Origin: Candidatus Zhuqueibacterota bacterium
GTDB lineage: Bacteria; Zhuqueibacterota; Zhuqueibacteria; Residuimicrobiales; Oceaniaggregativiventaceae
Direction of reading: 5' to 3'
Length of the DNA: 64,000 bases
Assembly: GCA_014728085.1 (NCBI GenBank)
Contig: WJMF01000020.1
Span: 74,608-138,607, forward strand
A program made the position numbers and the translations under genes. Position 1 is the stretch's first letter, and the number at the start of each line of letters is the position of its first letter. Below, one piece after another: positions 1,768 through 43,740 of the stretch. Below the pieces are notes generated by a model that was not told the DNA's origin, ran no database searches, and saw only the letters and a program-made list of their open reading frames with translations.

Positions 1768-2054
1768 AGATCAAGAGAAAAAGGTGGTTTCACCTTTTAC
1801 TATAGCAAAGCGCATGCCAGGCTTTATTAAAATTGCAAATTATTATTTATTATGAAATTAATAGATCAAACACTGTTTGCGCTTTGACGTTACGATTACG
1901 CTTTTGTGGTTAACAATGTTTGAATTTCAATTTGGTATCTCAGGTGCTATAAATTCCCGGCCGGTTAGGAAAAATGCAGTCTTGCATTTTATCTTACAAT
2001 AGTGTATGTTAGCAGACAAACGTTACAGTTATGTGTATATTACAATAGAAAATC

Positions 2055-16914: not shown

Positions 16915-17399
16915 TCTCTTCTGATATTTCGCTTTTTCACACCAACATCCTCCTGCAGGTTGCTCCTAAAGCTCGCACATGACGTTTTCTTCAAACGCTA
17001 AACAGCCCTGAACAATATGCGATGTTCTATCGCATCCGGAAATGGTTCACTCGAAGGAATATTAATTATTTGATTGGTTTTTGTCTTGTTTTTTTTAAAA
17101 AAAATAGTCATTATAATACTAAATAGACTTGTAAAGGGGGCTTGCTACTATTCAATATAGAATTCTGGGCCAGAAAAACAATCTTTTTCATTTTTGAAAT
17201 CTATTGTCTCATGAATGTACAAATGTTTCAGTAAAACACGACCATTTTTTATACCGTTTTCAAGACGTCAACATATCCTTGTCGTTGTTTCAAAAACTCA
17301 TGTTTACAATTGCAGAAAAAATCGATAGTTGCATCCCGGACGTTTACCGCTGGATCTGTGAGCGGATTTTTTTAATCCGGGATCAAACGCTGAATTAAA

Positions 17400-17415
17400 T
17401 GGCACTGTATTTGCG
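17400..17415 (+). promoter_or_regulatory. Sigma-54 (-24/-12) promoter candidate: TGGCAC-N5-TTGCG
   Basis: tggcactgtatttgcg has the correct GG-N10-GC spacing. It lies 68 nt upstream of the ATG of the large secreted protein. Confidence 0.5.
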
Positions 17416-17482
17416 TTGCACTAGCCAGTATGCCATATCGGCATCACGAGGCCGAATTTTGGTGAATCAACTGGAGGAAAAG

Positions 17483-20400
17483 ATGAAACCGAATTTCTAT
17501 CTATGTATATTGTTACTGTTGATCGGGTTTACCGCCCCGCTGCTGGCTCAGGAAGGTACCATTATCGACAGAACCACGGCAGACCCGGAAAAAAGCGGCT
17601 ATGCCCGTTGGATAAAACTGACCTTTCAAACCACACCGGGCGGCACCAACAATCTCAACGACAATTTTAACGGTGTCAAGTTTATGATCGACCTGAATCT
17701 CGACCGGGACGATAACGCGACAACACACACCCCCGGTGAGGTTTATGCCATTCGTGGCGATTCGATCAAGACGCACTTTAACAACTCTGGTGGTCAATTT
17801 GATCAGTATTTGTATTTACCCATCAGAGGGAATCACGATACCAACATTCGGCCACGCGTAAAACTGGAAACCACAGGTTCACTCAGAATCGGCGCTTTTC
17901 AGCTAACCATCCAAAACGATACCGGATATGAAACCTGCCGCGACGGCATCAAACCGAACCTGAGAATGGCGATTTATTATGATGACGGCAGTGGTTCATC
18001 CGGTCCCGAACCGCAAAGCCCGGGCAATACCACCGCTTTTGACGGTTATATCGACCGCATCGATATTATCTGGAGTGAACCCATGGATACAACCAATAAA
18101 GCGGTTAGCGGCGACATTTTTAATGGACTTGGCGATACAATTCTGCGAACGCAAACGACAGGTGGGTGGTACGATGACGAAAACCCCCTGACCTATGACT
18201 ATCAGAGATTTACATTTTACGTTATTTCGAGCACACCCAATACCGGTGTCTCCATCACCCTCACCTATCAGCCCCCCGTCAGCAGCCTGGACAAATTCAA
18301 AGCCAAGTTTCCTTATGATGGTGTCAATCGCTATGAAGCTGAAAGCCATTCCGTCACGGTTCAGGACAAGGCGGGGCCGGCAATTATCAGCGCAAAGACC
18401 GTCAGAGCACATGGTAAAAGACGTCAGCCTCTGGCCGACGCACTTACCAGCAAACGCGTACTGGTCACCTTTAGCGAAAAGGTCAATCGCGCCAATTTAC
18501 TCCTCGATGATCTGACCTTTACCGTTACCATCATGGGTACGCAGCAGGATATTTATGCCGTGCGCTTTCCCACCAGCGGATATAGTAAAACCTTTGAAAT
18601 TGAGCTGGATGATCCCTATTCAACCGAAAACGATACCGGCAGTATTCGTTATAGCGGCAGCTCCCTGGTTTCGGATATCAATGGCAATCTTAATGGCATT
18701 TCTACAGCCAACGAGCCACCCACGCGACCCGCTGCGGGCTATGGACGCCTGATATACATTTGGGATGGAATCCTGCCCAACATTATCCGCGTCCGTACCC
18801 GAGATGTTGCTTTGCCGGGCGAGCTGATCAACGGCGGCGCAAACGGATGGGGGGTGCTCGATTATGTCGATATTATTTTTGATCACACCATGGACACAGG
18901 GCAGCTCAGCACGAGCGGCTTTACTGTCGAAGGAGAAGGCATACAGGGCATCGCCGGGGTTGGAACCTGGTTTAACAGCACCACTTTTCGCATCCCCATA
19001 GCGGCAAGCAACCCCAAAATGCCCAATACCGGCGTATTGCCACAGGTAAAATATGAAAACCCGGAAGCGCCGAACGGCATGAGAGATAACACAAATTACG
19101 GCTATACCGAAGATGTTTTCTACAGCGATACGATGTTGTCGAACAGCAATTACCGCATCGTGGAAATCATCGATAACGCCGGTCCGGCCATATGGCGAGC
19201 GACCACCGCGAGTAAAAACAGCATTCGCATCACCTTTAGCGAAAAAATCAAAACCAATTTTCCCTCGAGCTCCAATTGGCCGACAAATCCCGCACATGCC
19301 TATACTTCACCAAAAAAATTCATCTGGTATGTAGACAATGTTGCCTCCGAGGATACAGGAACCGAAATTTTCTTTACCGGCATTCAGCCGAACTATCAAA
19401 ACAAAATTGTTTATCTGCACCAGACCGGAACGACCTGGACAAAATACGATAGCGGTGGAATCAATTTCACCGGCCAGGGTGTTGTAAGAGATATTGCCAA
19501 CAACGGCAACGATCAGTATGATAATGATACCAGTCTGAGCTCAAAAACAATTCTGGGATCGGATGTCAAGGTATACAGAGATACGATTGCACCAAATCTT
19601 GTTGCCGTTCAAACTGTAGATACCGATTTGAACGGAAAAATTGACGGCTATCGATTTGTTTTTGACGACACCTCTGCCGTTTACCCCAAAACCTCTTTTA
19701 ATACTGAAAACTGGTCGGTTATATCCTATTATACGCTGGAAACCAAAACCTTGCTTGGATTGGATGAAAGCGGCTATACCGTCGTCGGTTCTGATACCCT
19801 CTCGGTCTTGTTGCGTTTCGAAGAAACCCCGAATGACACGTTGAAAAAGAGAGCTTATCTCGGTGACACCGGCGATGTTCCCGATATCATTGTTGCGACC
19901 GGCCAGGGCCTTTCAGACTGGGCCGGCAATGTTATGGATCCATTGCCCATCGGTATAACCAAAGAACAGGACAAATCCGGTCCTGCCATCTGCAGCGCCA
20001 AAACCATCAGTCTCCAGGACGTCGATGTCTTTGTTAGTGAAGATCTTAAAGACAGCACCGTTTCCCGGGAGGATTTTCTGCTCAATATGGTGGTTCAAAC
20101 CCCGATTACAAGCACGTTGCCCATCATAACCGCCACAGAACAGACACCCGAAATGCACAGCAATCCGGAGGAGATCAAACATGGCCGCGTCACGCTTACA
20201 GTACCCCTGGTAAGTGCATGGCAGCCGGATTATGAAGGCTTTGTGGCATTTTCCTATCCGGGCGCGGTCTATGATCACGTCAGCAATGGTCCCGGTGTCG
20301 ATCCCATGATGGACAATCCAAATACACAGCTGGACACTATTAAGGTCGACGACAATGCCGCCAGTCAGTTCGATATTCATGTGAAAATACCCGGCAATCC

Positions 20401-21994
20401 GGTTAGCGGTGCCCCCTTTCAGGTAGAAGTGATTGCCCTTGATAGTGATGGAGAGATAGACCGAAATTTTCCCTATGAAATCTTTTTCTCCAGCAACCTT
20501 CCGACAAATGATATCTCCATGCCATACGGCCCCCATGCATTGGAGGAAGGCGTGGGGCTGTTCACGGTTACAAGTTGGGTGGAAACCAACAATCTCGTCT
20601 TTATGGTTTCCGTGAATAATGATAACTATTCAGGATATCACAGCCAATCCGCGCCAATCACCATAGAAGCCCCGGTAATTGATGCGCCGGACACACTGAT
20701 CGTTGAGGACTATCCCAATGACCAGGGAAGCCATGTCATTTTAAAATTCGATTATTCCGACAACCATCCGGGTATCGGCGAAAACAATTTGATCAGCTAT
20801 TATCAGATTTACCGCGAAGTCAATCACCAGGTTTTCCATTGGTACACACAACCCGCTATCGACACGACAGGAAGCTATGCTGATTCAATGATTATCGTGC
20901 TCAATACAGTTGATAACGAAGAATCCAACTTTTGGGTACGTGCCGTCCACGACCGCAATCGAAGCCTCGCCAAACGATTTGTTTCTCAGACAGACGATCA
21001 GGACGGCTATCTTGTTGCCGAAAGCATAGATCCGATGATGCTTTACAGCGAAGGAAAAATCAGCGAAGAGTACGGCGCCTATATGAAAACCCTGAACGCC
21101 GGACAATATTTATCCGCAACGGTTATGTCTCATGGCCGGGCCGTCGATAACATACAACCCAAAATGCCTGAAAATCTATTGGCCGCCAAGGAAGGCGTCG
21201 CGGTTAAATTGATGTGGAATAAAGTCCGTTTGGGTGTCAACAACACACCCGAAGGAAAACTTTACTATGAAATCTATGCCCACAATCAAAACGCTTACTT
21301 TAATCCGGATGAAGATGGTGAGCTGCTGGCAACCATCGAAGATACGTCGTTTACCATTCCGGACAATCGTTTGCGACGGTTTTATTGCATACGCGCATTT
21401 GACGGAGACAACAGGTCCGCTGTCTCAAATCGGGTCGGGAAATATGGATTCACGATGAATAAAAACAAAAACAGTTCATTCAACTATCTCTCTTTTCCGC
21501 TGGAGACCTGGGATATAACGGATGCAAAGAGCGTATCGCAAATGATTGAAAACCTGCAAGTCCTCTACAAACTAAACCCGGTGACCAACAGCTTTTCGAC
21601 CTATTATATCCCACAGATAGAGTATGGAACCAACTTTGCCCTTGAAACCGGGGCGCCGCTGCTGGTAAACAACGATAAAACCATTGCCGATACCTGGTTT
21701 TATACCGGTAAAATACCAGCGGTTGGATCGGTTAAATTCACTCTGAACAAGGGTGAAAAATCCATCTTTAATGAAATCATCGTCCCACTGGACAAATTTG
21801 ATATTACCAATGCCGATCAATTGGCCAATAATATCGGCGGCATTGAGATTGTTTACAAGCTCGATCCGGAAACCAATGCCTTCAGTAAATTCTGGATCCC
21901 GGACATCGGCTATGGCGAAAATTTTGCAATCATGCCCGGTGAACCGGTACTTATCAACATTAATCAAAATGCCCCGGACATGTGGCCTAACTAG
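17483..21994 (+). CDS. Very large secreted protein (about 1504 aa) with a signal peptide, repeated Ig-like/beta-sandwich-type segments and a tandemly duplicated C-terminal roughly 55-aa module
   Basis: GGAGGAAAAG ribosome-binding site then ATG at 17483. Signal peptide MKPNFYLCILLLLIGFTAPLLAQ. No enzymatic motif was recognised. Internal repeat YKLNPVTNSFSTYYIPQIEYGTNFALETGAPLLVNND / YKLDPETNAFSKFWIPDIGYGENFAIMPGEPVLININ. Confidence 0.7.
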   Translation: MKPNFYLCILLLLIGFTAPLLAQEGTIIDRTTADPEKSGYARWIKLTFQTTPGGTNNLNDNFNGVKFMIDLNLDRDDNATTHTPGEVYAIRGDSIKTHFNNSGGQFDQYLYLPIRGNHDTNIRPRVKLETTGSLRIGAFQLTIQNDTGYETCRDGIKPNLRMAIYYDDGSGSSGPEPQSPGNTTAFDGYIDRIDIIWSEPMDTTNKAVSGDIFNGLGDTILRTQTTGGWYDDENPLTYDYQRFTFYVISSTPNTGVSITLTYQPPVSSLDKFKAKFPYDGVNRYEAESHSVTVQDKAGPAIISAKTVRAHGKRRQPLADALTSKRVLVTFSEKVNRANLLLDDLTFTVTIMGTQQDIYAVRFPTSGYSKTFEIELDDPYSTENDTGSIRYSGSSLVSDINGNLNGISTANEPPTRPAAGYGRLIYIWDGILPNIIRVRTRDVALPGELINGGANGWGVLDYVDIIFDHTMDTGQLSTSGFTVEGEGIQGIAGVGTWFNSTTFRIPIAASNPKMPNTGVLPQVKYENPEAPNGMRDNTNYGYTEDVFYSDTMLSNSNYRIVEIIDNAGPAIWRATTASKNSIRITFSEKIKTNFPSSSNWPTNPAHAYTSPKKFIWYVDNVASEDTGTEIFFTGIQPNYQNKIVYLHQTGTTWTKYDSGGINFTGQGVVRDIANNGNDQYDNDTSLSSKTILGSDVKVYRDTIAPNLVAVQTVDTDLNGKIDGYRFVFDDTSAVYPKTSFNTENWSVISYYTLETKTLLGLDESGYTVVGSDTLSVLLRFEETPNDTLKKRAYLGDTGDVPDIIVATGQGLSDWAGNVMDPLPIGITKEQDKSGPAICSAKTISLQDVDVFVSEDLKDSTVSREDFLLNMVVQTPITSTLPIITATEQTPEMHSNPEEIKHGRVTLTVPLVSAWQPDYEGFVAFSYPGAVYDHVSNGPGVDPMMDNPNTQLDTIKVDDNAASQFDIHVKIPGNPVSGAPFQVEVIALDSDGEIDRNFPYEIFFSSNLPTNDISMPYGPHALEEGVGLFTVTSWVETNNLVFMVSVNNDNYSGYHSQSAPITIEAPVIDAPDTLIVEDYPNDQGSHVILKFDYSDNHPGIGENNLISYYQIYREVNHQVFHWYTQPAIDTTGSYADSMIIVLNTVDNEESNFWVRAVHDRNRSLAKRFVSQTDDQDGYLVAESIDPMMLYSEGKISEEYGAYMKTLNAGQYLSATVMSHGRAVDNIQPKMPENLLAAKEGVAVKLMWNKVRLGVNNTPEGKLYYEIYAHNQNAYFNPDEDGELLATIEDTSFTIPDNRLRRFYCIRAFDGDNRSAVSNRVGKYGFTMNKNKNSSFNYLSFPLETWDITDAKSVSQMIENLQVLYKLNPVTNSFSTYYIPQIEYGTNFALETGAPLLVNNDKTIADTWFYTGKIPAVGSVKFTLNKGEKSIFNEIIVPLDKFDITNADQLANNIGGIEIVYKLDPETNAFSKFWIPDIGYGENFAIMPGEPVLININQNAPDMWPN

Positions 21995-22024: not shown

Positions 22025-22987
22025 ATGTTAAATAAAAAATTATTGATCAGCCTGTTTCTAGTCGTCAGCGCGACGCTTGTTTTGGCACAACCGCAAATGT
22101 CCAAACTGGTATGGGGAACGGTAAAAAATCCGGACGGAAGCACGCCGGGCATAAAAGAAGTAAAATATACCAGTTACCTGTCCAGTGAAATCACGGATTC
22201 AACCGATGTCGATAGCACAACCAATAATGGAGGCTGGGCAATCGATTTAAATGATTTTAATAACACGGGAAGTGAATGGGGAGAAGGCGATACCCTGTTT
22301 GTTCTCTTTGAGAATATTGCTTCCGGCGGTGAATTCAACGGCGTCACGTCAGTGCTTAAACATATTGCAGGCTCGGAATCAGATTATCCGCAGCAAATTA
22401 GCGTCTATACCCTTCCGGTTGAATTGGTGACCTTTGCATCACAGGTTGAAAAGGGATTACTGCATGACAGGGTGATATTGTCGTGGAAAACCCTCGGCGA
22501 GTCCAATAATTTTGGCTTTGCCATCGAGCGAAGTTTTGATGGCACAAGGTTTGAAGAAATTGGCTTTATCGCCGGTGCCGGATCAACCAATACAGCACGG
22601 CATTATGAATACAAGGATGGCCAAATCACTCAACCCGGGATCTACAGCTATCGCCTGAAACAAATCGATAACGACGGCACCTTTACCTATTCCAGGGTGG
22701 AGGAAATCACTCTGAATACACCGGAACACTATGAATTGCTGCAAAATTATCCAAATCCGTTCAATCCGGAAACCACGATAGCGTTCAAACTGAAAGAGGA
22801 TACCCGGGTGAATGTCACCATTTTTAATGTCCTCGGCAGGGAAGTAGAGACTCTGGTTGATAAAAAGATGAAAGCCGGTACCCATCAAATTGTTTTTAAT
22901 GCCGGTACACTGCCAAGCGGAATGTATTTTTATCATATGAAAACAAGCGATTTTAATCATGTACGCAAAATGGTCCTGATCAAATAA
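22025..22987 (+). CDS. Secreted protein with a type IX secretion (Por) C-terminal sorting domain
   Basis: C-terminus ELLQNYPNPFNPETTIAFKLKEDTRVNVTIFNVLGREVETLVDKKMKAGTHQIVFNAGTLPSGMYFYHMKTSDFNHVRKMVLIK matches the T9SS C-terminal domain. N-terminal signal peptide present. Confidence 0.8.
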   Translation: MLNKKLLISLFLVVSATLVLAQPQMSKLVWGTVKNPDGSTPGIKEVKYTSYLSSEITDSTDVDSTTNNGGWAIDLNDFNNTGSEWGEGDTLFVLFENIASGGEFNGVTSVLKHIAGSESDYPQQISVYTLPVELVTFASQVEKGLLHDRVILSWKTLGESNNFGFAIERSFDGTRFEEIGFIAGAGSTNTARHYEYKDGQITQPGIYSYRLKQIDNDGTFTYSRVEEITLNTPEHYELLQNYPNPFNPETTIAFKLKEDTRVNVTIFNVLGREVETLVDKKMKAGTHQIVFNAGTLPSGMYFYHMKTSDFNHVRKMVLIK

Positions 22988-38747: not shown

Positions 38748-39809
38748 ATGAAAAAACAACTCTACCTCTTTGCAACATTCACACTTTTACTTTTGCTGCT
38801 GCTTTCCTGTAGAGAAAAACAGGCTGATCACCAACGGATTAAACCCTTATTCGTGACGGAAAAAGTAAAACACGACAGCGATGATCCGGCTATCTGGATC
38901 AATCCAGCCGATACCAGCAAAAGCCTGATCATCGGAACCGACAAGAACAAGGATGGCGCTCTCTATGTGTTCGATCTTGAAGGAAAAATTATCGAGGACA
39001 AGGTCGTGTACCCTTTGCAACGCCCCAATAATGTCGATGTTGAATATGGTTTTATGCTCAATGGACAGGAAATAGATATTGCTGTTACGACCGAACGACT
39101 CACAAACAAACTTTTAATTTTCAAACTTCCGGAGATGCAGGCGATCGACAATAGCGGAATAAACGTCTTTGCCGGAGAAAGCCGGCGGGCGCCTATGGGG
39201 ATTGCACTTTATAAAAGAGCTTCGGATCAACAAATTTTCGCCATTGTTGGGCGAAAAGAAGGTCCGACGGATGGAACCTACCTCTGGCAATATCTTCTCA
39301 AAGATAACGGCGATGGAGCTGTTGTTGCTGAAAAAGTCAGGGCCTTTGGAGAGTGGAGCGGCAAGAAAGAGATCGAGGCCCTTTGTGTTGACGATGAACT
39401 CGGTTATGTCTACTATTCAGATGAAACCGTTGGTGTACGAAAGTATCATGCAGACCCGGATCATAAAGATGCCAACCGTGAATTGGCCCTTTTTGCCACC
39501 GAAGGGTTTGCGGAGGATCATGAAGGAATATCCATACTGGATAGCGGTGACGGAAAAGGATATATTCTGGTTTCGGACCAGCAGGCAGATGAATTTCATA
39601 TATTCACGCGCGAAGGCAGTGAACAGAATCCGCACGACCATCAACGGGTCAAAGTGGTCAAACTCTCAACCCATGAAAGTGACGGATCGGAAATCACAGC
39701 CTGCAGTTTTCAGCAAAAATTTCCCGGCGGTTTATTTGTCGCCATGTCGGATGACAAGACCTTTCACTATTACGCCTGGGAGCAATTGATCGGAAAAGCC
39801 GGCAATTAA
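38748..39809 (+). CDS. Beta-propeller phytase (3-phytase, BPP family) lipoprotein
   Basis: Lipobox LLLLLSC. DDPAIWINP motif, then TDKNKDGALYVFDLEGK. Collinear with Bacillus PhyC-type phytases. Confidence 0.75.
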   Translation: MKKQLYLFATFTLLLLLLLSCREKQADHQRIKPLFVTEKVKHDSDDPAIWINPADTSKSLIIGTDKNKDGALYVFDLEGKIIEDKVVYPLQRPNNVDVEYGFMLNGQEIDIAVTTERLTNKLLIFKLPEMQAIDNSGINVFAGESRRAPMGIALYKRASDQQIFAIVGRKEGPTDGTYLWQYLLKDNGDGAVVAEKVRAFGEWSGKKEIEALCVDDELGYVYYSDETVGVRKYHADPDHKDANRELALFATEGFAEDHEGISILDSGDGKGYILVSDQQADEFHIFTREGSEQNPHDHQRVKVVKLSTHESDGSEITACSFQQKFPGGLFVAMSDDKTFHYYAWEQLIGKAGN

Positions 39810-39822
39810 GCCGGCTTTTTCT
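39791..39822 (+). terminator. Rho-independent terminator after the phytase gene
   Basis: gaaaagccggcaattaagccggctttttc: a 9-bp stem, 5-nt loop and T-run. Confidence 0.5.
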
Positions 39823-39886
39823 TCCAGATTCGGAGTCAAGTCGGGAACTTTCCTGTTTCAGGGAAAATTTTTTGCAGCTAATACTA

Positions 39887-40108
39887 TCTTATGATCATCA
39901 TCTTTTTTGCCAATGTTCCGTCGGGAGTGGAGAGTTTGTAAAAATACAGGCCCGTCGCAACCGCTTTACCTGAAAAATCGCAGCCATTCCACCTGATTTC
40001 GTGTTTGCCCCGGCAAGCACCGGCAAACAAAACCGTCACCAAATTCCCCTGTATATATTTACCGTTCTGGTAATGCTGAACAAAATTTAGAGTTGCATTT
40101 TTGCGACT
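39887..40108 (-). pseudogene. Remnant of a T9SS C-terminal sorting domain (last 74 codons of a lost secreted-protein gene)
   Basis: Minus-strand frame *SRKNATLNFVQHYQNGKYIQGNLVTVLFAGACRGKHEIRWNGCDFSGKAVATGLYFYKLSTPDGTLAKKMMIIR* matches the distal half of the T9SS C-terminal domain (…G.H.I.WNG.D.SGK.VASGIYFYRL…KKMILLK). It lacks the PNPFNP start, has two upstream in-frame stops, and directly abuts the activator gene start. Confidence 0.5.
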
Positions 40109-40138
40109 CTATGGCTATTTTATTATAAGAATGCCAGC

Positions 40139-41545
40139 ATGACGTTTAACGTCAACAGAACTGTATACAATATGGTTGAAATGAAAACAAGTTTAGATCA
40201 AGACGTAACAAGAATTATACTGGAAAGTATATCCGATGGTGTCTTTACCGTCGATCACGACTGGCGTATAACTTCTTTTAATCGCGCAGCGGAAAAAATT
40301 ACCGGTATTCAGCGCCGGGAAGCAATCGGTAAAAAATGCTTTGAGGTCTTTCGTTCAAACATGTGCGAGACGGACTGTGCTCTGCGCCGGACTATGAGGG
40401 AGGGTAAACCCTTTATCGATACAAGCACTTATATTGTCAATGCTGACCAGGAACGAATTCCGGTAATTGTCTCCACCGCGCTTCTCAGGGATAAAAAGGG
40501 CGCTATTATCGGTGGTGTTGAGACATTTCGCGACATGACCATCATCGAGGCATTACGCCGCGAGCTGGATGGCCGTCATCAAATCGGAGATATGATCAGT
40601 CACAATGCAAAAATGCAGGAAATTTTTGCTATTCTGCCTCAAATTGCTGAAAGCGAAAGCACTGTTTTGATTCAGGGAGAAACAGGTACGGGTAAGGAAA
40701 TACTGGCGAAAGCAATTCATGAATTCAGTCCACGTAAAAACGCTGATTTTGTCGCCATAAATTGTGGCGCCCTTCCGGATTCCTTGCTGGAATCCGAGCT
40801 TTTTGGCTATAAAAAAGGGGCTTTTACCGGTGCCGTGCATGACAAGCCGGGCCGCCTGGCTGCGGCTGAAAGCGGCACGCTTTTCCTCGATGAAATTGGC
40901 AGCATCAGCCCCGCATTTCAGGTACGCCTATTGCGCGTCCTGCAGGAAAAAACCTATACCCCTCTGGGGAGTAACAAATTCAAGAATGCCGACATCCGCA
41001 TCATCGCTGCAACACACGACAATTTAGAAACCCTGGTGGATCAAAATCTCTTTCGAAAGGACCTCTTTTATCGCATTAATGTTATGAAACTGCAGCTCCC
41101 ACCGCTGAGAGAACGCAAAGAAGATATTCCCTTGCTGATCGAGCACATAATACACCGCCTGAATCACACCCGCAATAAATGTATCCAGGGTATCACTCAG
41201 GAAGCACTGGCCCTGCTGATGGTTTGTGAGTATCCCGGCAATATTCGGGAACTTGAAAATATCATAGAACATGCCTTTGTGCTCTGTACCAAAGAAGAAA
41301 TAGATATTTCCTCTCTGCCGGAGAATATACATCCCGGCTCTGATCCGCAATCAACAACCTCTGTAAAAAAAGCCCTCGAGATAGCCGAAGCAGAAACGAT
41401 TTTGCAACTGCTGAAACGCAATCACTATAATCGCTATAAAACAGCGCAAGACCTCGGCATTCATAAAAGCACACTCTTTCGAAAAATTAAAAAACTGGGA
41501 ATTAACCTGCCAAAAATCGATGGCCGCTCGACACACTCGCGCTAA
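40139..41545 (+). CDS. Sigma-54-dependent transcriptional activator (PAS sensor, AAA+ domain, Fis-type HTH)
   Basis: N-terminal PAS domain (ILESISDGVFTVDHDWRITSFNRAAEKITG...), Walker A GETGTGKE, GAFTGA ([14 protein letters not shown]), and an HTH (YKTAQDLGIHKSTLFRKIKKLGI). Confidence 0.9.
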   Translation: MTFNVNRTVYNMVEMKTSLDQDVTRIILESISDGVFTVDHDWRITSFNRAAEKITGIQRREAIGKKCFEVFRSNMCETDCALRRTMREGKPFIDTSTYIVNADQERIPVIVSTALLRDKKGAIIGGVETFRDMTIIEALRRELDGRHQIGDMISHNAKMQEIFAILPQIAESESTVLIQGETGTGKEILAKAIHEFSPRKNADFVAINCGALPDSLLESELFGYKKGAFTGAVHDKPGRLAAAESGTLFLDEIGSISPAFQVRLLRVLQEKTYTPLGSNKFKNADIRIIAATHDNLETLVDQNLFRKDLFYRINVMKLQLPPLRERKEDIPLLIEHIIHRLNHTRNKCIQGITQEALALLMVCEYPGNIRELENIIEHAFVLCTKEEIDISSLPENIHPGSDPQSTTSVKKALEIAEAETILQLLKRNHYNRYKTAQDLGIHKSTLFRKIKKLGINLPKIDGRSTHSR

Positions 41546-41578
41546 CAATGCAATCTTGCGTTTATAGCGATTAATCAA

Positions 41579-41594
41579 GTCGCAAATATGCGAC
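41579..41594. promoter_or_regulatory. Perfect 16-bp palindrome GTCGCAAATATGCGAC, a candidate enhancer (upstream activating sequence) for the adjacent activator
   Basis: A dyad about 85 bp upstream of the -24 element, which is typical placement for an enhancer-binding-protein site. A second partial dyad TGCAATCTTGCG sits at 41549-41560. Confidence 0.35.
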
Positions 41595-41679
41595 CCTGTT
41601 AAAATTTTAATCCAGACAGCAAAATTATAAATTATTAAAATACAGCTGGATAACCGCCTTCTCAACAGAGGCGAATGAT

Positions 41680-41695
41680 TGGCATTGTTGTTGCT
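41680..41695 (+). promoter_or_regulatory. Sigma-54 promoter: TGGCAT-N5-TTGCT
   Basis: tggcattgttgttgct has the canonical GG/GC spacing. It lies 30 nt upstream of the ATG at 41726. Confidence 0.6.
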
Positions 41696-41725
41696 TATAA
41701 TCCAATGAAAAAGGGAACCAAATCC

Positions 41726-42103
41726 ATGAAAGTAGGCATTACAGTCTGGCAAAACCGGATTTCTCCGGTATTTGATGTCGCTAAACACGTCAAGGTAATT
41801 CGGCTCGATAACAACGCCGTCCAGATCAAGGATCTGGAAATGACATCTTCGCTGCCGCTGCAGCGCGCAGAGCTTCTTTCAAATGCCGGTATCAAGGTCT
41901 TAATCTGCGGAGCGATATCCGTTCCTTTTGCAAAAATGATTGCCGGCAGAAACATTAAAGTCATTCCTTTTATTGCCGGCGAGTTTTCAACTGTGCTCAA
42001 TGCCTATCTGAATAGCAATCTTGAACGCCCGGAATTTAATATGCCGGGATACCGGCGGCAACGTCGCCGGCGTTTTCACGGTGGCAGACCAAATGGTAGA
42101 TAG
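41726..42103 (+). CDS. NifX/NafY/NifB-C-terminal-like protein (dinitrogenase FeMo-cofactor-binding fold, PF02579-like) with an Arg-rich C-terminal tail
   Basis: MKVGITVWQNRISPVFDVAKHVKVIRLD...AELLSNAGIKVLICGAISVPFAKMIAGRNIKVIPF fits the family profile (ISP.FG.A..F..........L...GV.VLI.G.IG......L...GI.V). Tail RRQRRRRFHGGRPNGR. Confidence 0.7.
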   Translation: MKVGITVWQNRISPVFDVAKHVKVIRLDNNAVQIKDLEMTSSLPLQRAELLSNAGIKVLICGAISVPFAKMIAGRNIKVIPFIAGEFSTVLNAYLNSNLERPEFNMPGYRRQRRRRFHGGRPNGR

Positions 42104-42141
42104 AGAGATGAACCCGAAAACAATATAAAGGAGGTGAACAT

Positions 42142-42357
42142 ATGCCGAGAGGTGACGGAACCGGCCCCCGGGGACAAGGGCCGCAAACAGGACGCGGGAT
42201 GGGACCTTGTGGTGATAACAATTCTCCGCAAGCGAACAACAATCCAAATCCCAATGCTGGATGGGGTCGACGCCTTATTAATGGATTAAGCAATGCGTTT
42301 GGCCGCCGTCGCGGCCGTGGTCAGGGTCAGGGTCAGGGCCGCAAAGGTAATGATTAA
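42142..42357 (+). CDS. Small Gly/Arg-rich protein, DUF5320-like N-terminal motif only (71 aa)
   Basis: Strong ribosome-binding site AAGGAGGTGAACATATG. MPRGDGTGPRGQGPQTGRGMGPCGDNN then an N/P-rich linker and GRRRGRGQGQGQGRKG. No C-terminal coiled coil. Confidence 0.6.
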   Translation: MPRGDGTGPRGQGPQTGRGMGPCGDNNSPQANNNPNPNAGWGRRLINGLSNAFGRRRGRGQGQGQGRKGND

Positions 42358-42385
42358 TTATAACCTATTGGAAAGGAGGCATATC

Positions 42386-42742
42386 ATGCCCGCAGGAGAT
42401 GGGACAGGTCCCGCAGGAATGGGACCGATGACAGGCCGTGCTGCAGGATATTGCACCGGTTATGGCGTGCCCGGTCATATGAATCCGGGTCCCGGACGCG
42501 GTCGGGGATTCGGCCGCGGTATGAGAATGGGATTCCGCGGTGGCCGGGGGCCGATGTGGGGGCACGGATATTCGCCATATTGGTACGGAGCCCCTGTAGC
42601 ATATAACACACCCGCAACCGCAGCACCAACAGCACAACAGGAAATCGATGTCTTACGATCGCAGGCAGAATATTTTGAAAATATGCTCAAAGAGATCAGC
42701 CAGCGCATCGATGAACTGGAAAAACAAAAGACCGAGGAATAA
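42386..42742 (+). CDS. DUF5320-family-like protein (118 aa): conserved MPxGDGTGPxGxGPxTGR..C N-terminus, RG/GY-rich middle, C-terminal coiled coil
   Basis: Ribosome-binding site GAAAGGAGGCATATCATG. MPAGDGTGPAGMGPMTGRAAGYCTGYG...GRGRGFGRGMRMGFRGGRGPMWGHGYSPYWYG...EIDVLRSQAEYFENMLKEISQRIDELEKQK. Confidence 0.65.
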   Translation: MPAGDGTGPAGMGPMTGRAAGYCTGYGVPGHMNPGPGRGRGFGRGMRMGFRGGRGPMWGHGYSPYWYGAPVAYNTPATAAPTAQQEIDVLRSQAEYFENMLKEISQRIDELEKQKTEE

Positions 42743-42750
42743 GCAGGAAC

Positions 42751-42774
42751 GGGATTGCCTAAAATGCAATCCCG
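42751..42774 (+). terminator. Hairpin terminator after the DUF5320 gene
   Basis: GGGATTGC-ctaaaat-GCAATCCC: a perfect 8-bp stem. The downstream U-tract is weak. Confidence 0.4.
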
Positions 42775-42845
42775 CTTCTCCTTAACAGTAAAAACAACCC
42801 TGCAGCTGAGATCAATACAAAAAAGCATACGAAAAGGCGGCCAAA

Positions 42846-43556
42846 GTGACCAATCAAAAAAAAACAAAAACGAGTAAAGCAAAAATAAATTTCATCATCG
42901 ACGTTGTTCTCCTTATCCTGCTCTTTCTGATTGGCTCCATCGGCATTTTGATAAAATATGTGCTGCTTTCAGGACAAGAAAGCTGGGAAAAATATCACCA
43001 AAAAGTAGAACTGCTCTTATTCGGTTGGGATCGGCATCAATGGGGAACCCTGCATTTCATTCTTTCCGCGATTTTCATAGCACTGATCTTGCTTCATATC
43101 ATCTTGCACTGGAGCCAGGTGAAATGTCTCTTTAAACTTACCATTGCACCGAAAACAGCGCGTATTATTCTAACCAGTCTGTTTCTTTTCATCTGTTTGC
43201 TATTGTTGCTCTTGCCCTTTGTCTTGCCGATTGAAATCAATGTTGTCCCGACCGGCCAGGGCAGACAACACATACTCGAATCTGAAAAGAAAAAGTCCGG
43301 ACCGGAACCGCAAGGAATGGAGCAAAATCATTCCCCCAATCAAAAACATCAACCGGAAATCCAAGGCTATATGACCCTGGAAGATGTGGCAATTCAATAT
43401 GGAATATCTGCAGACACGCTGAAAAAACATCTCGGCATCGCTCAGAAGGTGCCAAACAAAAGCCGCCTCGGACATTTACGACGGCAATATCATTTTAAAA
43501 TGAGCACAATAGAACGCTTGATTCAGAAAAAATTGAACAACCCATCATCTCCTTAG
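42846..43556 (+). CDS. Membrane protein (three or four TM helices, DUF4405-like N-terminal region with a soluble C-terminal domain)
   Basis: TM helices with HW/HxxxH features (LHFILSAIFIALILLHIILHW). GTG start at 42846. Confidence 0.45.
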   Translation: MTNQKKTKTSKAKINFIIDVVLLILLFLIGSIGILIKYVLLSGQESWEKYHQKVELLLFGWDRHQWGTLHFILSAIFIALILLHIILHWSQVKCLFKLTIAPKTARIILTSLFLFICLLLLLLPFVLPIEINVVPTGQGRQHILESEKKKSGPEPQGMEQNHSPNQKHQPEIQGYMTLEDVAIQYGISADTLKKHLGIAQKVPNKSRLGHLRRQYHFKMSTIERLIQKKLNNPSSP

Positions 43557-43740
43557 AACAATAATCAAAGCAGAATCATCGACAACAAACTCTCTTTCCA
43601 GACACACTGTTAAATTAACAATTCTTTCATATAATGGCAAAATAAAAGGACCAGGGCCGAATTTTTGGTTGCGCTTTATTCTCTTTTATAATATAATAAG
43701 AATAAATAACAGTCTGAGGATAACATTCGGGAATGAAAAA

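What the first reader, a model, noticed from the sequence alone, without database searches (positions are those of the whole stretch)
40139..42774. Sigma-54-controlled module: PAS activator, palindromic enhancer, -24/-12 promoter, then a NifX-like protein and two tandem DUF5320-like Gly/Arg-rich proteins
The sequence shows a complete regulatory circuit. It has a PAS/AAA+/HTH enhancer-binding activator (GAFTGA present). It has a perfect 16-bp dyad GTCGCAAATATGCGAC at 41579-41594. It has a textbook sigma-54 promoter TGGCAT-N5-TTGCT at 41680-41695. Three tightly spaced genes with strong ribosome-binding sites follow, closed by a perfect 8-bp hairpin at 42751-42774. The first gene matches the NifX/NafY/NifB-C fold, which binds FeMo-cofactor or iron-sulfur cluster precursors in diazotrophs. 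Nothing else nitrogenase-like is in the window. The other two genes carry the MPxGDGTGPxGxGPxTGR..C N-terminal signature I associate with DUF5320, which, to my knowledge, has no assigned function. Homologues of both families are reported as neighbours in anaerobes and archaea, but the pairing has not been explained. A dedicated PAS-sensing sigma-54 activator implies a tightly signal-gated function, possibly a metallocluster or redox-related carrier system. This is the best candidate for an undescribed system in the window.
Basis: partly seen in the sequence, partly recalled or inferred. Interest (0 to 1): 0.75.

Follow-up and report, generated by a model that had tools for sequence, protein, structure and literature searches.

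The report
Redox-gated sigma-54 orp-like iron-sulfur module
This is a stripped-down version, in an uncultivated KSB1 bacterium, of the "orange protein" (orp) gene system of sulfate reducers: a redox-sensing sigma-54 activator switches on a NifX-fold protein and two small DUF5320 proteins that most likely bind or store iron-sulfur material, so the circuit is already known but its cargo proteins are still poorly understood.

Summary
The dyad has 6-bp arms around a 4-bp spacer and is not a perfect 16-mer. The hairpin has a 9-bp stem. A second copy of the dyad lies upstream of the activator gene.

The module is not an undescribed system. It is an orp-type locus, as studied in Desulfovibrio vulgaris. 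The activator carries the OrpR Cys triad (C-x-E-x6-C-x3-C). It is 60% identical to the activator that heads a complete orp cluster in Desulfonauticus.

In genomes with an OrpR-type activator, 56 of 70 assessable loci have the same NifX-like subfamily ("NifXw") directly downstream. Of 63 such activator-NifXw pairs, 52 keep a -24/-12 site and 39 keep the palindrome, against 0.8% background for each.

DUF5320 is very probably the family of Orp5. The published DvH orp2 operon starts M-P-Y-G-D, the DUF5320 signature. Orp5 is a subunit of the ORP complex, and a homologue is reported to bind [2Fe-2S].

The window variant lacks the MinD/Mrp ATPases and the canonical orange protein, and it sits next to a DUF4405 haem-b cytochrome gene.

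The likely function is anoxia-gated handling or storage of anionic Fe-S material by polycationic, single-Cys proteins, resembling IssA. This function is inferred, not shown.

The parts
40092..40107 (.). Second copy of the activator-binding palindrome (GTTGCA-TTTT-TGCGAC), 32 bp upstream of the annotated ATG of the activator gene. Probable autoregulatory site.
   Evidence: one of only two exact matches to RTYGCA-N4-TGCRAY in the window; it is the one conserved island in otherwise diverged DNA upstream of the activator gene in relative L001. In DvH the OrpR site overlaps its own sigma-70 promoter and forms a negative loop (PMC3897727). Here only a weak 7/12 sigma-70-like match overlaps the site, and the scan did not report it.
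40139..41545 (+). OrpR-type sigma-54 enhancer-binding protein. PAS at about aa 27-134, with C67-x-E69-x6-C76-x3-C80 (nt 40337-40378). AAA+ at aa 153-318, with GAFTGA (nt 40817-40834). HTH_8 at aa 413-453. The true start may be 40172 or 40181.
   Evidence: Pfam; 60% identity over 432 aa to the Desulfonauticus activator that heads a full orp cluster; 119 of 120 PAS homologues keep the Cys triad. In PMC8359166, C52, C61, C65 and D/E54 of OrpR are tied to its [4Fe-4S] cluster.
41579..41594 (.). Upstream activating sequence GTCGCA-AATA-TGCGAC, starting 101 bp upstream of the start of the -24/-12 promoter motif.
   Evidence: the same palindrome type (1 mismatch or fewer) occurs in 39 of 63 homologous spacers against 0.8% background. 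Distances to the promoter cluster at 101-105, 111-116, 135 and 144-149 bp; it is a conserved footprint against L001.
41680..41695 (+). Sigma-54 promoter TGGCAT-N5-TTGCT. The transcription start is expected near 41706.
   Evidence: a sigma-54 site (1 mismatch or fewer, GG and GC intact) occurs in 52 of 63 homologous spacers against 0.8% background; footprint.
41726..42103 (+). NifXw: a 125-aa protein of the NifX/IPR003731 fold, from the subfamily that follows orpR-type genes. Invariant motifs are W-x2-RISPVFD, CGAIS (C61, its only Cys) and MPG. The tail is arginine-rich (8 Arg in the last 21 residues).
   Evidence: PF02579, 31.4 bits; pLDDT 90; all 14 PDB matches with E<1e-3 are PF02579-fold proteins; family motifs and cationic tail; synteny; 983 clusters at E<=1e-30.
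42142..42357 (+). D1: a short DUF5320 protein of 71 aa, pI 12, with 19 Gly, 10 Arg and one Cys (C23). It has the N-terminal motif only and no coiled coil.
   Evidence: PF17253, 47.8 bits, model positions 1-55; composition; conserved in L001. In other organisms the same motif is fused to the C-terminus of NifXw.
42386..42742 (+). D2: a full-length DUF5320 protein of 118 aa. It has the invariant N-terminal motif MPxGDxTGPxGxGPMTGRxxGyC, then a Gly/Arg/aromatic/Pro-rich cationic middle, then an acidic amphipathic C-terminal helix.
   Evidence: 86.3 bits; invariant columns; residues 1-75 have 23 G, 7 R, 10 aromatic, 9 P, 1 C and pI 10.3; more than 4000 homologues.
42750..42774 (+). Terminator-like hairpin: 9-bp perfect stem, 7-nt loop, weak U-tract.
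   Evidence: a 13-bp hairpin followed by UUUUAUCUU sits at the same place in L001.
42846..43556 (+). DUF4405 membrane protein (predicted haem-b cytochrome with conserved His residues) carrying a conserved C-terminal soluble domain. It is a possible accessory of the module. Co-transcription is uncertain because of the hairpin.
   Evidence: PF14358, 43.1 bits; the same neighbour occurs in L001/L002, and it lies inside an orp-like operon in L003/L004; conserved His residues. It is absent from the 80 OrpR-centred genome loci. PMC11334425 shows that DUF4405 binds haem b and is related to ferrosome FezC.

Best explanation
The locus is a reduced orp-type module from a candidate division KSB1 bacterium.

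Regulation
- Shown by sequence and comparison: an OrpR-type activator gene is flanked by two RTYGCA-N4-TGCRAY palindromes. One lies 101 bp upstream of a -24/-12 promoter. The other lies just upstream of the activator's own gene.
- Inferred from D. vulgaris OrpR: the protein sits on these sites whatever its redox state, and its PAS domain holds a [4Fe-4S] cluster on the Cys triad. At low redox potential the cluster is intact, and the AAA+ domain remodels sigma-54 RNA polymerase so the operon is transcribed. On oxidation the PAS domain blocks activation. Binding at the upstream copy damps the activator's own expression.

Cargo (inferred)
- The operon makes a NifX-fold protein (NifXw) with one invariant Cys and a polyarginine tail.
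- It also makes two DUF5320 (Orp5-type) proteins. Each has one invariant Cys inside a strictly conserved Gly/Pro-rich N-terminal motif, followed by Gly/Arg/aromatic cationic stretches.
- D2 adds a C-terminal helix that would let it oligomerise.
- Together these proteins most likely bind, hold or pass on anionic iron-sulfur material, either clusters or a thioferrate-like polymer. The NifX domain and the Cys residues would act as nucleating ligands. The cationic segments would act as counter-charge, as proposed for the IssA tail.
- The neighbouring DUF4405 haem-b cytochrome could supply or remove electrons. This last step is speculative.
For: Regulator
- Domain architecture.
- The Cys triad with E at +2 has the spacing of OrpR C52/E54/C61/C65 (PMC8359166). 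It is kept in 119 of 120 PAS homologues.
- 60% identity to the activator of a complete orp cluster. That cluster's canonical PF02579 gene matches D. gigas ORP (2WFB) at 2e-18.
- At least 591 species-level genomes carry this PAS type.

DNA sites
- Window statistics.
- Conservation across phyla, with 11-bp spacing classes.
- Footprints against a relative.
- The site's core CGCA...TGCG resembles the DvH OrpR site GGGCGYRTTTTGCGCCC (PMC8359166).

Cargo
- NifXw follows the activator in 56 of 70 genomes.
- The NifX fold is confirmed.
- CGA[IV]S occurs in 120 of 120 homologues, and 97 of 111 have a cationic tail.
- NifXw occurs fused to the DUF5320 N-terminal motif plus a Gly/Arg tail in at least 11 homologues.
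- DUF5320 genes cluster with PF02579 genes in 46 of 64 loci and with MinD-ferredoxin ATPases in 24 of 64.
- The first gene of the DvH orp2 operon (DVU2105, Orp5) starts M-P-Y-G-D, matching the DUF5320 invariants M1, P2, G4 and D5.
- Orp5 is a subunit of the ORP complex, and its homologue binds [2Fe-2S] (PMC6345978).

Iron link
- Tandem DUF5320 genes lie next to a DtxR-type repressor and an iron ABC transporter.
- FUR-family regulators occur in 4 DUF5320 loci.
- Dde_3197-3199 are listed among the most strongly regulated genes together with feoA and flavodoxin (PMC10533852).

IssA parallel
- IssA is an IPR003731 domain with a 70-aa tail holding 15 Gly, 7 cationic, 14 aromatic and 11 Pro residues and the only Cys. 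The tail is proposed to wrap thioferrate (PMC5524996).
- D2 residues 1-75 hold 23 Gly, 7 Arg, 10 aromatic, 9 Pro and 1 Cys.
Against: - No biochemical data exist for these proteins or this organism.
- I could not obtain the sequences of DVU2105, DVU2106, DVU2107, Dde_3197 or IssA. Identity with OrpR therefore rests on a proxy (Desulfonauticus) and the published motif. Identity of DUF5320 with Orp5 rests on five published N-terminal residues.
- The window has no MinD/Mrp ATPase and no canonical orange protein. The known ORP complex therefore cannot form from local genes.
- NifXw, D1 and D2 have one Cys each, too few for a conventional cluster site within one chain.
- AlphaFold did not dock the DUF5320 motif onto the NifX domain in a natural fusion; pLDDT there is 50-58.
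- The window palindrome has a 4-bp spacer, whereas the DvH site has 3 bp between the CGCA and TGCG cores.
- No IHF consensus lies between the activating site and the promoter.
- rpoN is not in the window.
- The physiological role of the DvH ORP complex is itself unresolved; cell division has been proposed.
Confidence: 0.6

Rival explanations
1. The regulation is the same, but the cargo handles thiometalate-type Mo, W or Cu sulfide clusters rather than iron-sulfur material. The model is the orange protein, which holds [S2MoS2CuS2MoS2]3- without covalent bonds.
For: The orange protein of the same gene clusters binds a Mo-Cu sulfide cluster (PMC6345978). In a Smithellaceae genome, a minimal activator-NifXw-DUF5320 unit lies next to an ABC transporter with a TOBE domain, which is ModABC-like. 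The cationic-tail logic applies equally to any anionic metal sulfide.
Against: NifXw is not an orange-protein orthologue: it gives no sequence match to 2WFB at E<=1 and forms a distinct subfamily with an invariant Cys. The regulators found next to DUF5320 genes elsewhere are iron sensors (DtxR, FUR). No Mo or Cu transporter was recognised among the window genes that were scanned. The Orp5 homologue is reported to bind [2Fe-2S].
Confidence: 0.15
2. The proteins act in cell division or cell shape, as was first proposed for the ORP complex. The DUF5320 coiled coil would serve as a structural adaptor.
For: Loss of OrpR in D. vulgaris causes morphological defects. The ORP proteins are described as putatively involved in cell division, and MrpORP is polar (PMC8359166, PMC6345978).
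Against: The MinD/ParA-like ATPases that motivated that idea are missing here. The remaining proteins have metal-cluster features and iron-related neighbours. The division phenotype in DvH may be indirect.
Confidence: 0.08
3. D1 and D2 are RGG/RG-type proteins that bind nucleic acid or form condensates and are made under anoxia. Their link to NifX-like genes would be regulatory coincidence.
For: Gly/Arg-rich low-complexity sequence. The only PDB sequence matches are weak ones to nucleocapsid and ribosomal protein tails. The region is predicted to be disordered.
Against: The first 53 residues are far too conserved for generic low complexity, with 22 invariant columns that include a Cys. The genes are linked to PF02579 and Fe-S ATPase genes across phyla. 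The motif occurs fused to the NifX domain. Orp5 co-purifies with the ORP complex.
Confidence: 0.07
4. The NifX-like protein is a chaperone for nitrogenase FeMo-cofactor.
For: PF02579 membership. Structural similarity to NifX and NafY.
Against: No nif gene was found among the window genes examined. NifXw is a separate subfamily and is tied to orpR in organisms regardless of diazotrophy. Its closest structural matches are non-nif archaeal and Thermotoga proteins.
Confidence: 0.01

Closest known systems
orp gene cluster and OrpR (DVU2106) of Desulfovibrio vulgaris Hildenborough
   Same: A PAS/AAA+/HTH sigma-54 activator carrying the C-x8-C-x3-C triad. A palindromic binding site upstream of a -24/-12 promoter, and another at the activator's own promoter. 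A small NifX-family gene directly downstream of the activator. A DUF5320-type small protein (Orp5 starts MPYGD).
   Different: The window has no Orp3/Orp4 MinD-ferredoxin ATPases, no MrpORP and no canonical orange protein. It has one operon rather than two divergent ones. It has two tandem DUF5320 genes. The loop motif is GAFTGA rather than GAFTDA. The palindrome has a 4-bp rather than a 3-bp core spacing. No IHF consensus is present. The phylum is different (KSB1). A DUF4405 cytochrome gene lies next door.
IssA iron-sulfur storage protein of Pyrococcus furiosus (PF2025), and the uncharacterised 'IssX' clade
   Same: An IPR003731/NifX-fold domain combined with a cationic, glycine- and aromatic-rich, single-Cys, disordered segment. 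An anaerobe-specific protein. A proposed electrostatic grip on anionic iron sulfide.
   Different: In the window, the long Gly/Arg/aromatic segments are on separate polypeptides (DUF5320), and the NifX domain keeps only a 21-residue Arg tail. DUF5320 has a strictly conserved N-terminal motif and a coiled coil, neither of which is described for IssA. Control is by a sigma-54 redox sensor rather than a sulfur-responsive archaeal regulator. Homology of the IssA tail to DUF5320 was not tested.
Orange protein (ORP/Orp8; D. gigas, PDB 2WFB)
   Same: The same fold (Foldseek E 8.7e-5) and the same type of gene cluster.
   Different: No detectable pairwise sequence match. NifXw has the invariant CGAIS Cys and RISPVFD motif and a polyarginine tail. 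The orange protein binds its Mo-Cu cluster without Cys ligands.
NifX / NafY / NifB C-terminal domain
   Same: The fold and the Pfam family PF02579. All are carriers of complex metal-sulfur clusters.
   Different: No nif context and a separate subfamily. The Pfam score is only just above threshold (31.4 against 26.3).
DUF4405 / FezC haem-b membrane cytochromes (flavinylation-associated and ferrosome-associated)
   Same: The downstream gene is a PF14358 member with conserved His residues. FezC is linked to iron storage organelles.
   Different: No apbE or fez genes were seen here. The protein has an extra conserved C-terminal soluble domain. Its link to the operon is positional only and is limited to two lineages.

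Membership tests
OrpR-type sigma-54 enhancer-binding protein | PAS sensor + sigma-54-interaction AAA+ domain + Fis-type HTH | tested here: met
   PAS_9 60.5 bits, Sigma54_activat 227 bits, AAA_lid_14 94 bits, HTH_8 31 bits.
OrpR-type sigma-54 enhancer-binding protein | Three conserved PAS cysteines (C52, C61, C65 in DvH) plus D/E two residues after the first | tested here: met
   The window protein has C67, E69, C76 and C80 with identical spacing (sequence). 119 of 120 PAS homologues keep the motif. The definition comes from PMC8359166.
OrpR-type sigma-54 enhancer-binding protein | GAFTGA-type loop for contacting sigma-54 | tested here: met
   GAFTGA at 40817-40834. DvH OrpR has GAFTDA (PMC4641369).
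OrpR-type sigma-54 enhancer-binding protein | Direct sequence similarity to DVU2106 | not tested
   The DVU2106 sequence could not be obtained with the tools. The proxy is 60% identity over 432 aa to the activator of the Desulfonauticus orp cluster.
OrpR-type sigma-54 enhancer-binding protein | Binds a [4Fe-4S] cluster and activates only at low redox potential | not testable with these tools
   Needs anaerobic purification, spectroscopy and reporter assays.
OrpR regulon architecture | Imperfect palindrome upstream of a sigma-54 promoter, and a second site at the regulator's own promoter | tested here: met
   The core is CGCA-N4-TGCG here and CGCA-N3-TGCG in DvH.
OrpR regulon architecture | IHF site between the activating site and the promoter | tested here: not met
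   No WATCAANNNNTTR match with 1 mismatch or fewer lies between 41595 and 41680. The spacer is AT-rich, so bending by other means is possible.
Sigma-54 promoter | GG at -24 and GC at -12 with the spacing of TGGCAC-N5-TTGCW | tested here: met
   Exact match at 41680-41695. Conserved in 52 of 63 homologous spacers.
Sigma-54 promoter | The organism encodes RpoN, and transcription depends on it | not testable with these tools
   A six-frame regex for the RpoN box found nothing in the 64 kb. The rest of the genome is not available here. A second activator plus -24/-12 pair in the window suggests that the organism uses sigma-54.
ORP complex gene cluster (Orp3, 4, 5, 8, 9) | Two MinD-like ATPases with ferredoxin inserts (Orp3/Orp4) | tested here: not met
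   No GKGGxGK[ST] Walker A motif in six frames of the 64 kb. No hit to the MinD-Fer4 profile.
ORP complex gene cluster (Orp3, 4, 5, 8, 9) | Mrp/NBP35 ATPase MrpORP (Orp9) | tested here: not met
   The only link is a weak NCBIfam match of NifXw to the C-terminal Di-Nase part of the MrpORP model (23.7 bits, cutoff 450).
ORP complex gene cluster (Orp3, 4, 5, 8, 9) | Canonical orange protein (Orp8) | tested here: not met
   NifXw does not match 2WFB by sequence. The canonical-type profile finds nothing else in the window.
ORP complex gene cluster (Orp3, 4, 5, 8, 9) | Orp5-type small protein | tested here: inconclusive
   DVU2105 begins M-P-Y-G-D, matching the DUF5320 invariants. Only five residues are available. 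In the background, 25 of 12095 non-DUF5320 ORFs start with MPxGD.
PF02579 / IPR003731 (NifX, NafY, NifB-C, ORP, IssA domain) | Pfam score above the gathering threshold, and the fold | tested here: met
   31.4 bits against 26.3. The model has pLDDT 90. All 14 significant PDB matches belong to this fold.
IssA-type iron-sulfur storage protein | IPR003731 domain followed by a cationic, Gly- and aromatic-rich tail that holds the only Cys | tested here: inconclusive
   NifXw has a 21-residue tail with 8 Arg but few aromatics, and its one Cys lies inside the domain. The IssA-like composition is found on D2, in trans. It is found in cis only in fused homologues.
IssA-type iron-sulfur storage protein | Forms thioferrate nanoparticles | not testable with these tools
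   Needs electron microscopy, X-ray absorption spectroscopy and Fe/S analysis.
DUF5320 (PF17253) | Pfam score above the gathering threshold | tested here: met
   D2 scores 86.3 bits over model positions 1-99. D1 scores 47.8 bits over positions 1-55. The cutoff is 27.
DUF4405 (PF14358) haem-b cytochrome | Pfam score above threshold and conserved His residues in the transmembrane helices | tested here: met
   43.1 bits against 26.7. H51, H64, H70, H84 and H88 are invariant in three homologues. Haem binding itself was not tested.

The most novel reading that the evidence does not exclude
DUF5320 proteins (including Orp5) are free-standing counterparts of the IssA tail. Together with the Cys-bearing, polyarginine-tailed NifXw domain, they nucleate and wrap a thioferrate-like or polynuclear iron-sulfide store in anaerobic bacteria. 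OrpR-type activators allow this store to be built only when the cytoplasm is reducing. The orpR-NifXw pair, found in at least 591 species-level genomes across many phyla, would then mark a widespread and so far unrecognised bacterial iron-sulfur storage and delivery system. The Desulfovibrio ORP complex would be its ATPase-equipped elaboration.
Probability: 0.2. Interest if true: 0.8.

Novelty: new variant of a known kind. Interest (0 to 1): 0.45.

Why it matters
Fe-S cluster supply and iron storage in strict anaerobes are poorly understood, and the role of the Desulfovibrio ORP complex has been open since 2011.

This locus and its relatives show three things:
- The conserved core of the system is not the ATPases or the orange protein. 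It is the redox-sensing activator plus a particular Cys-bearing, polycationic NifX-fold protein, often accompanied by DUF5320.
- DUF5320, a family with thousands of members and no literature under that name, very probably equals Orp5. It therefore already has pull-down and [2Fe-2S] data behind it.
- The chemistry of these proteins parallels IssA, the only known iron-sulfide storage protein.

Together these turn a vague "conserved hypothetical" cluster into a specific hypothesis that can be tested.

For the window itself, the finding is a correct annotation: a reduced orp-like module, not a wholly new system.

Tried and rejected
- Nitrogenase link: rejected. No nif genes were found, and NifXw is a distinct subfamily.
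- Orange-protein orthology of the first gene: rejected. It gives no match to 2WFB at E<=1.
- IHF site between the activating site and the promoter: none found.
- Known RNA elements in 39800-43700: none in Rfam at E<=1.
- PDB sequence search with D2: only low-complexity matches.
- AlphaFold model of a natural NifXw-DUF5320N fusion, run to look for docking of the motif near C61: the motif stayed at low confidence, so the result is uninformative.
- Fetching DvH, G20 or IssA sequences: not possible. Fievet 2011 is not held. OrpR supplements are not held.
- Checking whether Orp7 (which starts M-I-V-H-A) is a NifXw member, by matching its N-terminus among 505 fetched proteins: no match, so this stays unresolved.
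- A sigma-70 promoter overlapping the upstream palindrome: only a 7/12 match, and the scan did not report it. Autorepression is therefore inferred from position, conservation and the DvH precedent only.
- DUF4405 as a general member of the system: rejected as general, since it is absent from all 80 OrpR-centred genome loci. It is kept as a lineage-specific neighbour.

Full report
**What is in the sequence**

The region 40092-43556 holds, in order:
- a palindrome (40092-40107);
- an activator gene (40139-41545);
- a second palindrome (41579-41594);
- an exact sigma-54 promoter match, TGGCATTGTTGTTGCT (41680-41695);
- three short genes with strong ribosome-binding sites (41726-42103, 42142-42357, 42386-42742);
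- a hairpin (42750-42774);
- a membrane-protein gene (42846-43556).

The activator has PAS, Sigma54_activat, AAA_lid_14 and HTH_8 domains. The first small protein hits PF02579 at 31.4 bits (cutoff 26.3). The next two hit DUF5320 at 47.8 bits (N-terminal half only) and 86.3 bits (full length). The membrane protein is DUF4405.

The promoter consensus occurs twice in 64 kb against 0.21 expected. The palindrome consensus RTYGCA-N4-TGCRAY occurs exactly twice, both times beside the activator gene, against 0.12 expected; no shuffle reached two.

Four details need correction:
- The dyad has 6-bp arms and a 4-bp spacer. It is not a perfect 16-mer.
- The hairpin stem is 9 bp, with a weak U-tract.
- The NifX-like gene starts at 41726.

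The window comes from a candidate division KSB1 bacterium. The proteins are 100% identical to GF407_01380 and GF407_01390.

**What it is**

NCBIfam gave a weak pointer to MrpORP, which led to the literature on the Desulfovibrio vulgaris orp system.

In that organism the PAS-type sigma-54 activator OrpR (DVU2106) binds imperfect palindromes. With sigma-54 and IHF it drives two operons that encode the Orange Protein complex. It also represses its own sigma-70 promoter through an overlapping site (PMC3897727). OrpR senses redox potential through a [4Fe-4S] cluster in its PAS domain. This needs C52, C61 and C65, with a conserved D/E at position 54 (PMC8359166).

The window activator has C67-x-E69-x6-C76-x3-C80, which is the same spacing. 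119 of 120 PAS-domain homologues keep the motif.

The window activator is 60% identical over 432 residues to the activator of Desulfonauticus submarinus. That activator heads a complete orp-type cluster:
- activator;
- a divergent NifX-like protein, 42% identical to the window protein;
- DUF5320;
- a canonical PF02579 protein that matches D. gigas orange protein 2WFB at 2e-18;
- a MinD-ferredoxin ATPase;
- an Mrp/NBP35 ATPase;
- a second MinD-ferredoxin ATPase;
- a second PF02579 protein.

**Conservation across genomes**

Most are Desulfobacterota. Myxococcota, Planctomycetota, Verrucomicrobiota, Lentisphaerota, Gemmatimonadota, Zixibacteria, Kiritimatiellia, Sumerlaeia, Acidobacteriota and Hydrogenedentes also appear.

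I built profiles from the session's own hits and searched the 80 retained loci with them.
- In 56 of the 70 loci with enough downstream sequence, the gene directly after the activator belongs to the same NifX-like subfamily as the window gene. I call this subfamily NifXw.
- Of 57 loci with at least 6 kb downstream, 40 carry MinD-ferredoxin and/or Mrp ATPases, 17 carry none and 19 carry DUF5320.
- Only two of these loci (L063, L079) have NifXw plus DUF5320 and nothing else.
- None has DUF4405.

The activator-NifXw spacers, 63 including the window, keep the regulatory DNA.
- A sigma-54 site with 1 mismatch or fewer and intact GG/GC occurs in 52 of 63. Background is 0.8%.
- The palindrome with 1 mismatch or fewer occurs in 39 of 63. 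Background is 0.8%.
- Palindrome-to-promoter distances fall into classes about 11 bp apart (101-105, 111-116, 135, 144-149 bp). This fits face-of-helix phasing.

Against the closest relative with diverged intergenic DNA (L001), only the palindrome, the -24/-12 element and the ribosome-binding site are conserved in the spacer. The upstream palindrome is likewise the one conserved island in front of the activator gene.

The regulatory reading is therefore well supported. Sigma-54 dependence, Fe-S binding and redox gating in this organism are inferred from the DvH experiments, not shown.

**The cargo: NifXw**

- The AlphaFold model is confident (pLDDT 90; residues 1-104 above 90; tail about 55).
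- All 14 PDB matches below E 1e-3 are PF02579-fold proteins: PH0822, TM1816, MJ0327, TM1290, Ta1041, ORP, NifX in the NifEN complex, MTH1175 and NafY.
- It is not an orange-protein orthologue. The only pairwise PDB sequence match is MTH1175 at E 0.49, and none is to 2WFB.
- The subfamily is defined by W-x2-RISPVFD, an invariant CGAIS cysteine, and MPG followed by a polycationic tail. CGA[IV]S occurs in 120 of 120 homologues. 97 of 111 have at least 5 Arg/Lys in the 22 residues after MPG.
- The subfamily is large: 983 50%-identity clusters at E<=1e-30 and 3017 at E<=1e-10.
- Longer members carry one of two C-terminal additions. One is a DUF5320-type N-terminal motif plus a Gly/Arg/Lys tail. The other is a Gly-rich linker plus a Cys-rich CxCPxCG...CPKCG ribbon.
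- The window's adjacent NifXw and D1 genes therefore correspond to a single fused protein elsewhere.

**The cargo: DUF5320**

- The family has more than 4000 detectable homologues.
- Its first 53 residues are strikingly conserved. Invariant positions include M1, P2, G4, D5, T7, G8, P9, G11, G13, P14, T16, G17, R18, G21 and C23. A Gly/Arg/aromatic region and an amphipathic acidic helix follow.
- 93 of 120 homologues have exactly one Cys.
- A DUF5320-centred scan of metagenome contigs gave 64 assessable loci. Of these, 46 have a PF02579-type gene within 3 kb, 24 have MinD-ferredoxin ATPases and 17 have a second DUF5320 gene in tandem.
- Where no OrpR-type activator is present, iron regulators appear. 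A DtxR-type repressor and an iron ABC transporter lie next to tandem DUF5320 genes in a Kiritimatiellae genome. FUR-family proteins occur in four metagenome loci.

**Link to Orp5**

Figure S1 of PMC3897727 prints the DvH promoter regions.
- The first gene of orp2 (DVU2105, Orp5) starts ATG CCA TAC GGA GAT, that is M-P-Y-G-D. This matches all four testable DUF5320 invariants.
- Orp5 is one of the five proteins of the purified ORP complex. [quoted passage not shown] 2016).
- DUF5320 is therefore very probably the Orp5 family. Only five residues were available, so I rate this as probable rather than shown.
- The first gene of orp1 (DVU2107, Orp7) lies directly after orpR, in the position NifXw occupies everywhere else. 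It starts M-I-V-H-A, and I could not confirm its family.

**How it probably works**

- Shown by sequence and comparison: an OrpR-type regulator, its two sites, a sigma-54 promoter, and a conserved operon of one NifX-fold and two DUF5320 proteins.
- Inferred from DvH: transcription occurs only at low redox potential, and the regulator represses its own gene.
- Inferred from composition, fusions and neighbours: the three products bind anionic iron-sulfur material.

The model for the last point is IssA of Pyrococcus furiosus. IssA is an IPR003731 domain with a 70-residue tail holding 15 Gly, 7 cationic, 14 aromatic and 11 Pro residues and the protein's only Cys. The tail is proposed to wrap anionic thioferrate. 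An "IssX" clade with Gly-rich, high-pI tails remains uncharacterised (PMC5524996).

D2 residues 1-75 hold 23 Gly, 7 Arg, 10 aromatic, 9 Pro and 1 Cys, with pI 10.3. D1 has pI 12. The NifXw tail has 8 Arg in 21 residues. This is a resemblance in chemistry.

Each of the three window proteins has a single invariant Cys, so any cluster would have to be shared between chains. The C-terminal helix of D2 would favour oligomers.

AlphaFold gave no confident docking of the DUF5320 motif onto the NifX domain in a natural fusion. This neither supports nor refutes the idea.

**DUF4405**

The downstream gene encodes a DUF4405 protein with five invariant His residues and a conserved C-terminal soluble domain. 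DUF4405 proteins bind haem b and are related to the ferrosome protein FezC (PMC11334425; ferrosome preprint).

The gene follows the module in the KSB1 relatives. It lies inside an orp-like operon in another lineage. It is absent from the 80 OrpR-centred genome loci. A conserved terminator-like hairpin separates it from D2. It may give the module a redox partner at the membrane, but this is speculative.

**Comparison with what is known, and novelty**

The regulatory circuit is a member of the known OrpR type. The cargo is a reduced variant of the orp cluster: local genes cannot form the known ORP complex, because the ATPases and the canonical orange protein are missing.

The searchable literature does not state:
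- that the activator-NifXw pair is the conserved core across phyla;
- that DUF5320 is the Orp5 family (one search found no relevant paper using the name);
- that these proteins parallel IssA.

I rate the finding as a new variant of a known kind, with moderate interest.

Noticed in passing
window 1804-1819 (-) and 2055-3602 (+): This looks like a second sigma-54 circuit. An exact TGGCAT-N5-TTGCT match on the minus strand faces the gene that starts at 1158 (its N-terminus looks like the CarboxypepD_reg type of a TonB-dependent receptor). It is divergent from a GAF-domain sigma-54 activator gene (GAF_2, Sigma54_activat, HTH_8).
   Followed up: partly
window 17399-21994 (+): A 1531-aa ORF has no Pfam match at E<=1e-5. 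The next ORF (22025-22987) carries a type IX secretion C-terminal sorting domain.
   Followed up: no
window 43290-43556 (C-terminal ~85 aa of the DUF4405 protein); L001 9139-9870; L003 10936-11640: The DUF4405 proteins next to orp-like genes share a conserved soluble C-terminal domain (G-x-MTL-x2-VA ... LG ... LG-x3-R) with no Pfam match. Its role is unknown.
   Followed up: partly
P0090, P0033, P0054, P0104, P0113 and about 15 more; L005 8001-8600: Many NifXw homologues end in a Gly-rich linker plus a Cys-rich ribbon (GPxGxCxCPxCG...H-x-RG-x-PC...CPKCG) that no Pfam model covers. This may be the 'several cysteines' form studied as Dde_3197.
   Followed up: partly
L007-L086, spacers between the activator and NifXw genes: Distances from the palindrome to the -24 element fall into classes about 11 bp apart (101-105, 111-116, 135, 144-149 bp). 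Several loci have two palindromes 22-34 bp apart.
   Followed up: partly
L087 5701-7369: In a Kiritimatiellae genome, two tandem DUF5320 genes directly follow a DtxR-type iron-dependent repressor and an iron-siderophore-type ABC transporter. No OrpR-type activator is present. A 269-aa PF02579 protein, a radical SAM/SPASM protein and a Cys/Met-metabolism PLP enzyme lie downstream.
   Followed up: no
L091-L170 (neighbours of DUF5320 genes): ARMT1-like/DUF89 phosphatase genes (7 of 125 neighbour ORFs), metallo-beta-lactamase-fold genes (5), FUR (4) and DUF134 (3) recur next to DUF5320 genes. Lactamase_B also follows several orp clusters (L003, L005).
   Followed up: no
L090 11540-12028: One protein combines a weak DUF5320 match with a 2x[4Fe-4S] ferredoxin domain. 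This is another fusion that ties DUF5320 to Fe-S proteins.
   Followed up: no
Supplement of PMC8351635 (Fig. S2 legend): The reference for the 'IssA clade' is given as Methanobacterium thermoautotrophicum (Q72A89). However, Q72A88 is DVU2109 according to PMC6345978. Q72A89 may therefore be a D. vulgaris protein, possibly the orange protein DVU2108. If so, that tree places ORP in the IssA clade. I did not verify this.
   Followed up: no
window 39884-40042 (-): A short ORF ends in GLYFYKLSTPDGTLAKKMMIIR, which looks like the end of a type IX secretion sorting domain. It may be a gene remnant or the tail of a longer, frameshifted gene. I did not test this.
   Followed up: no
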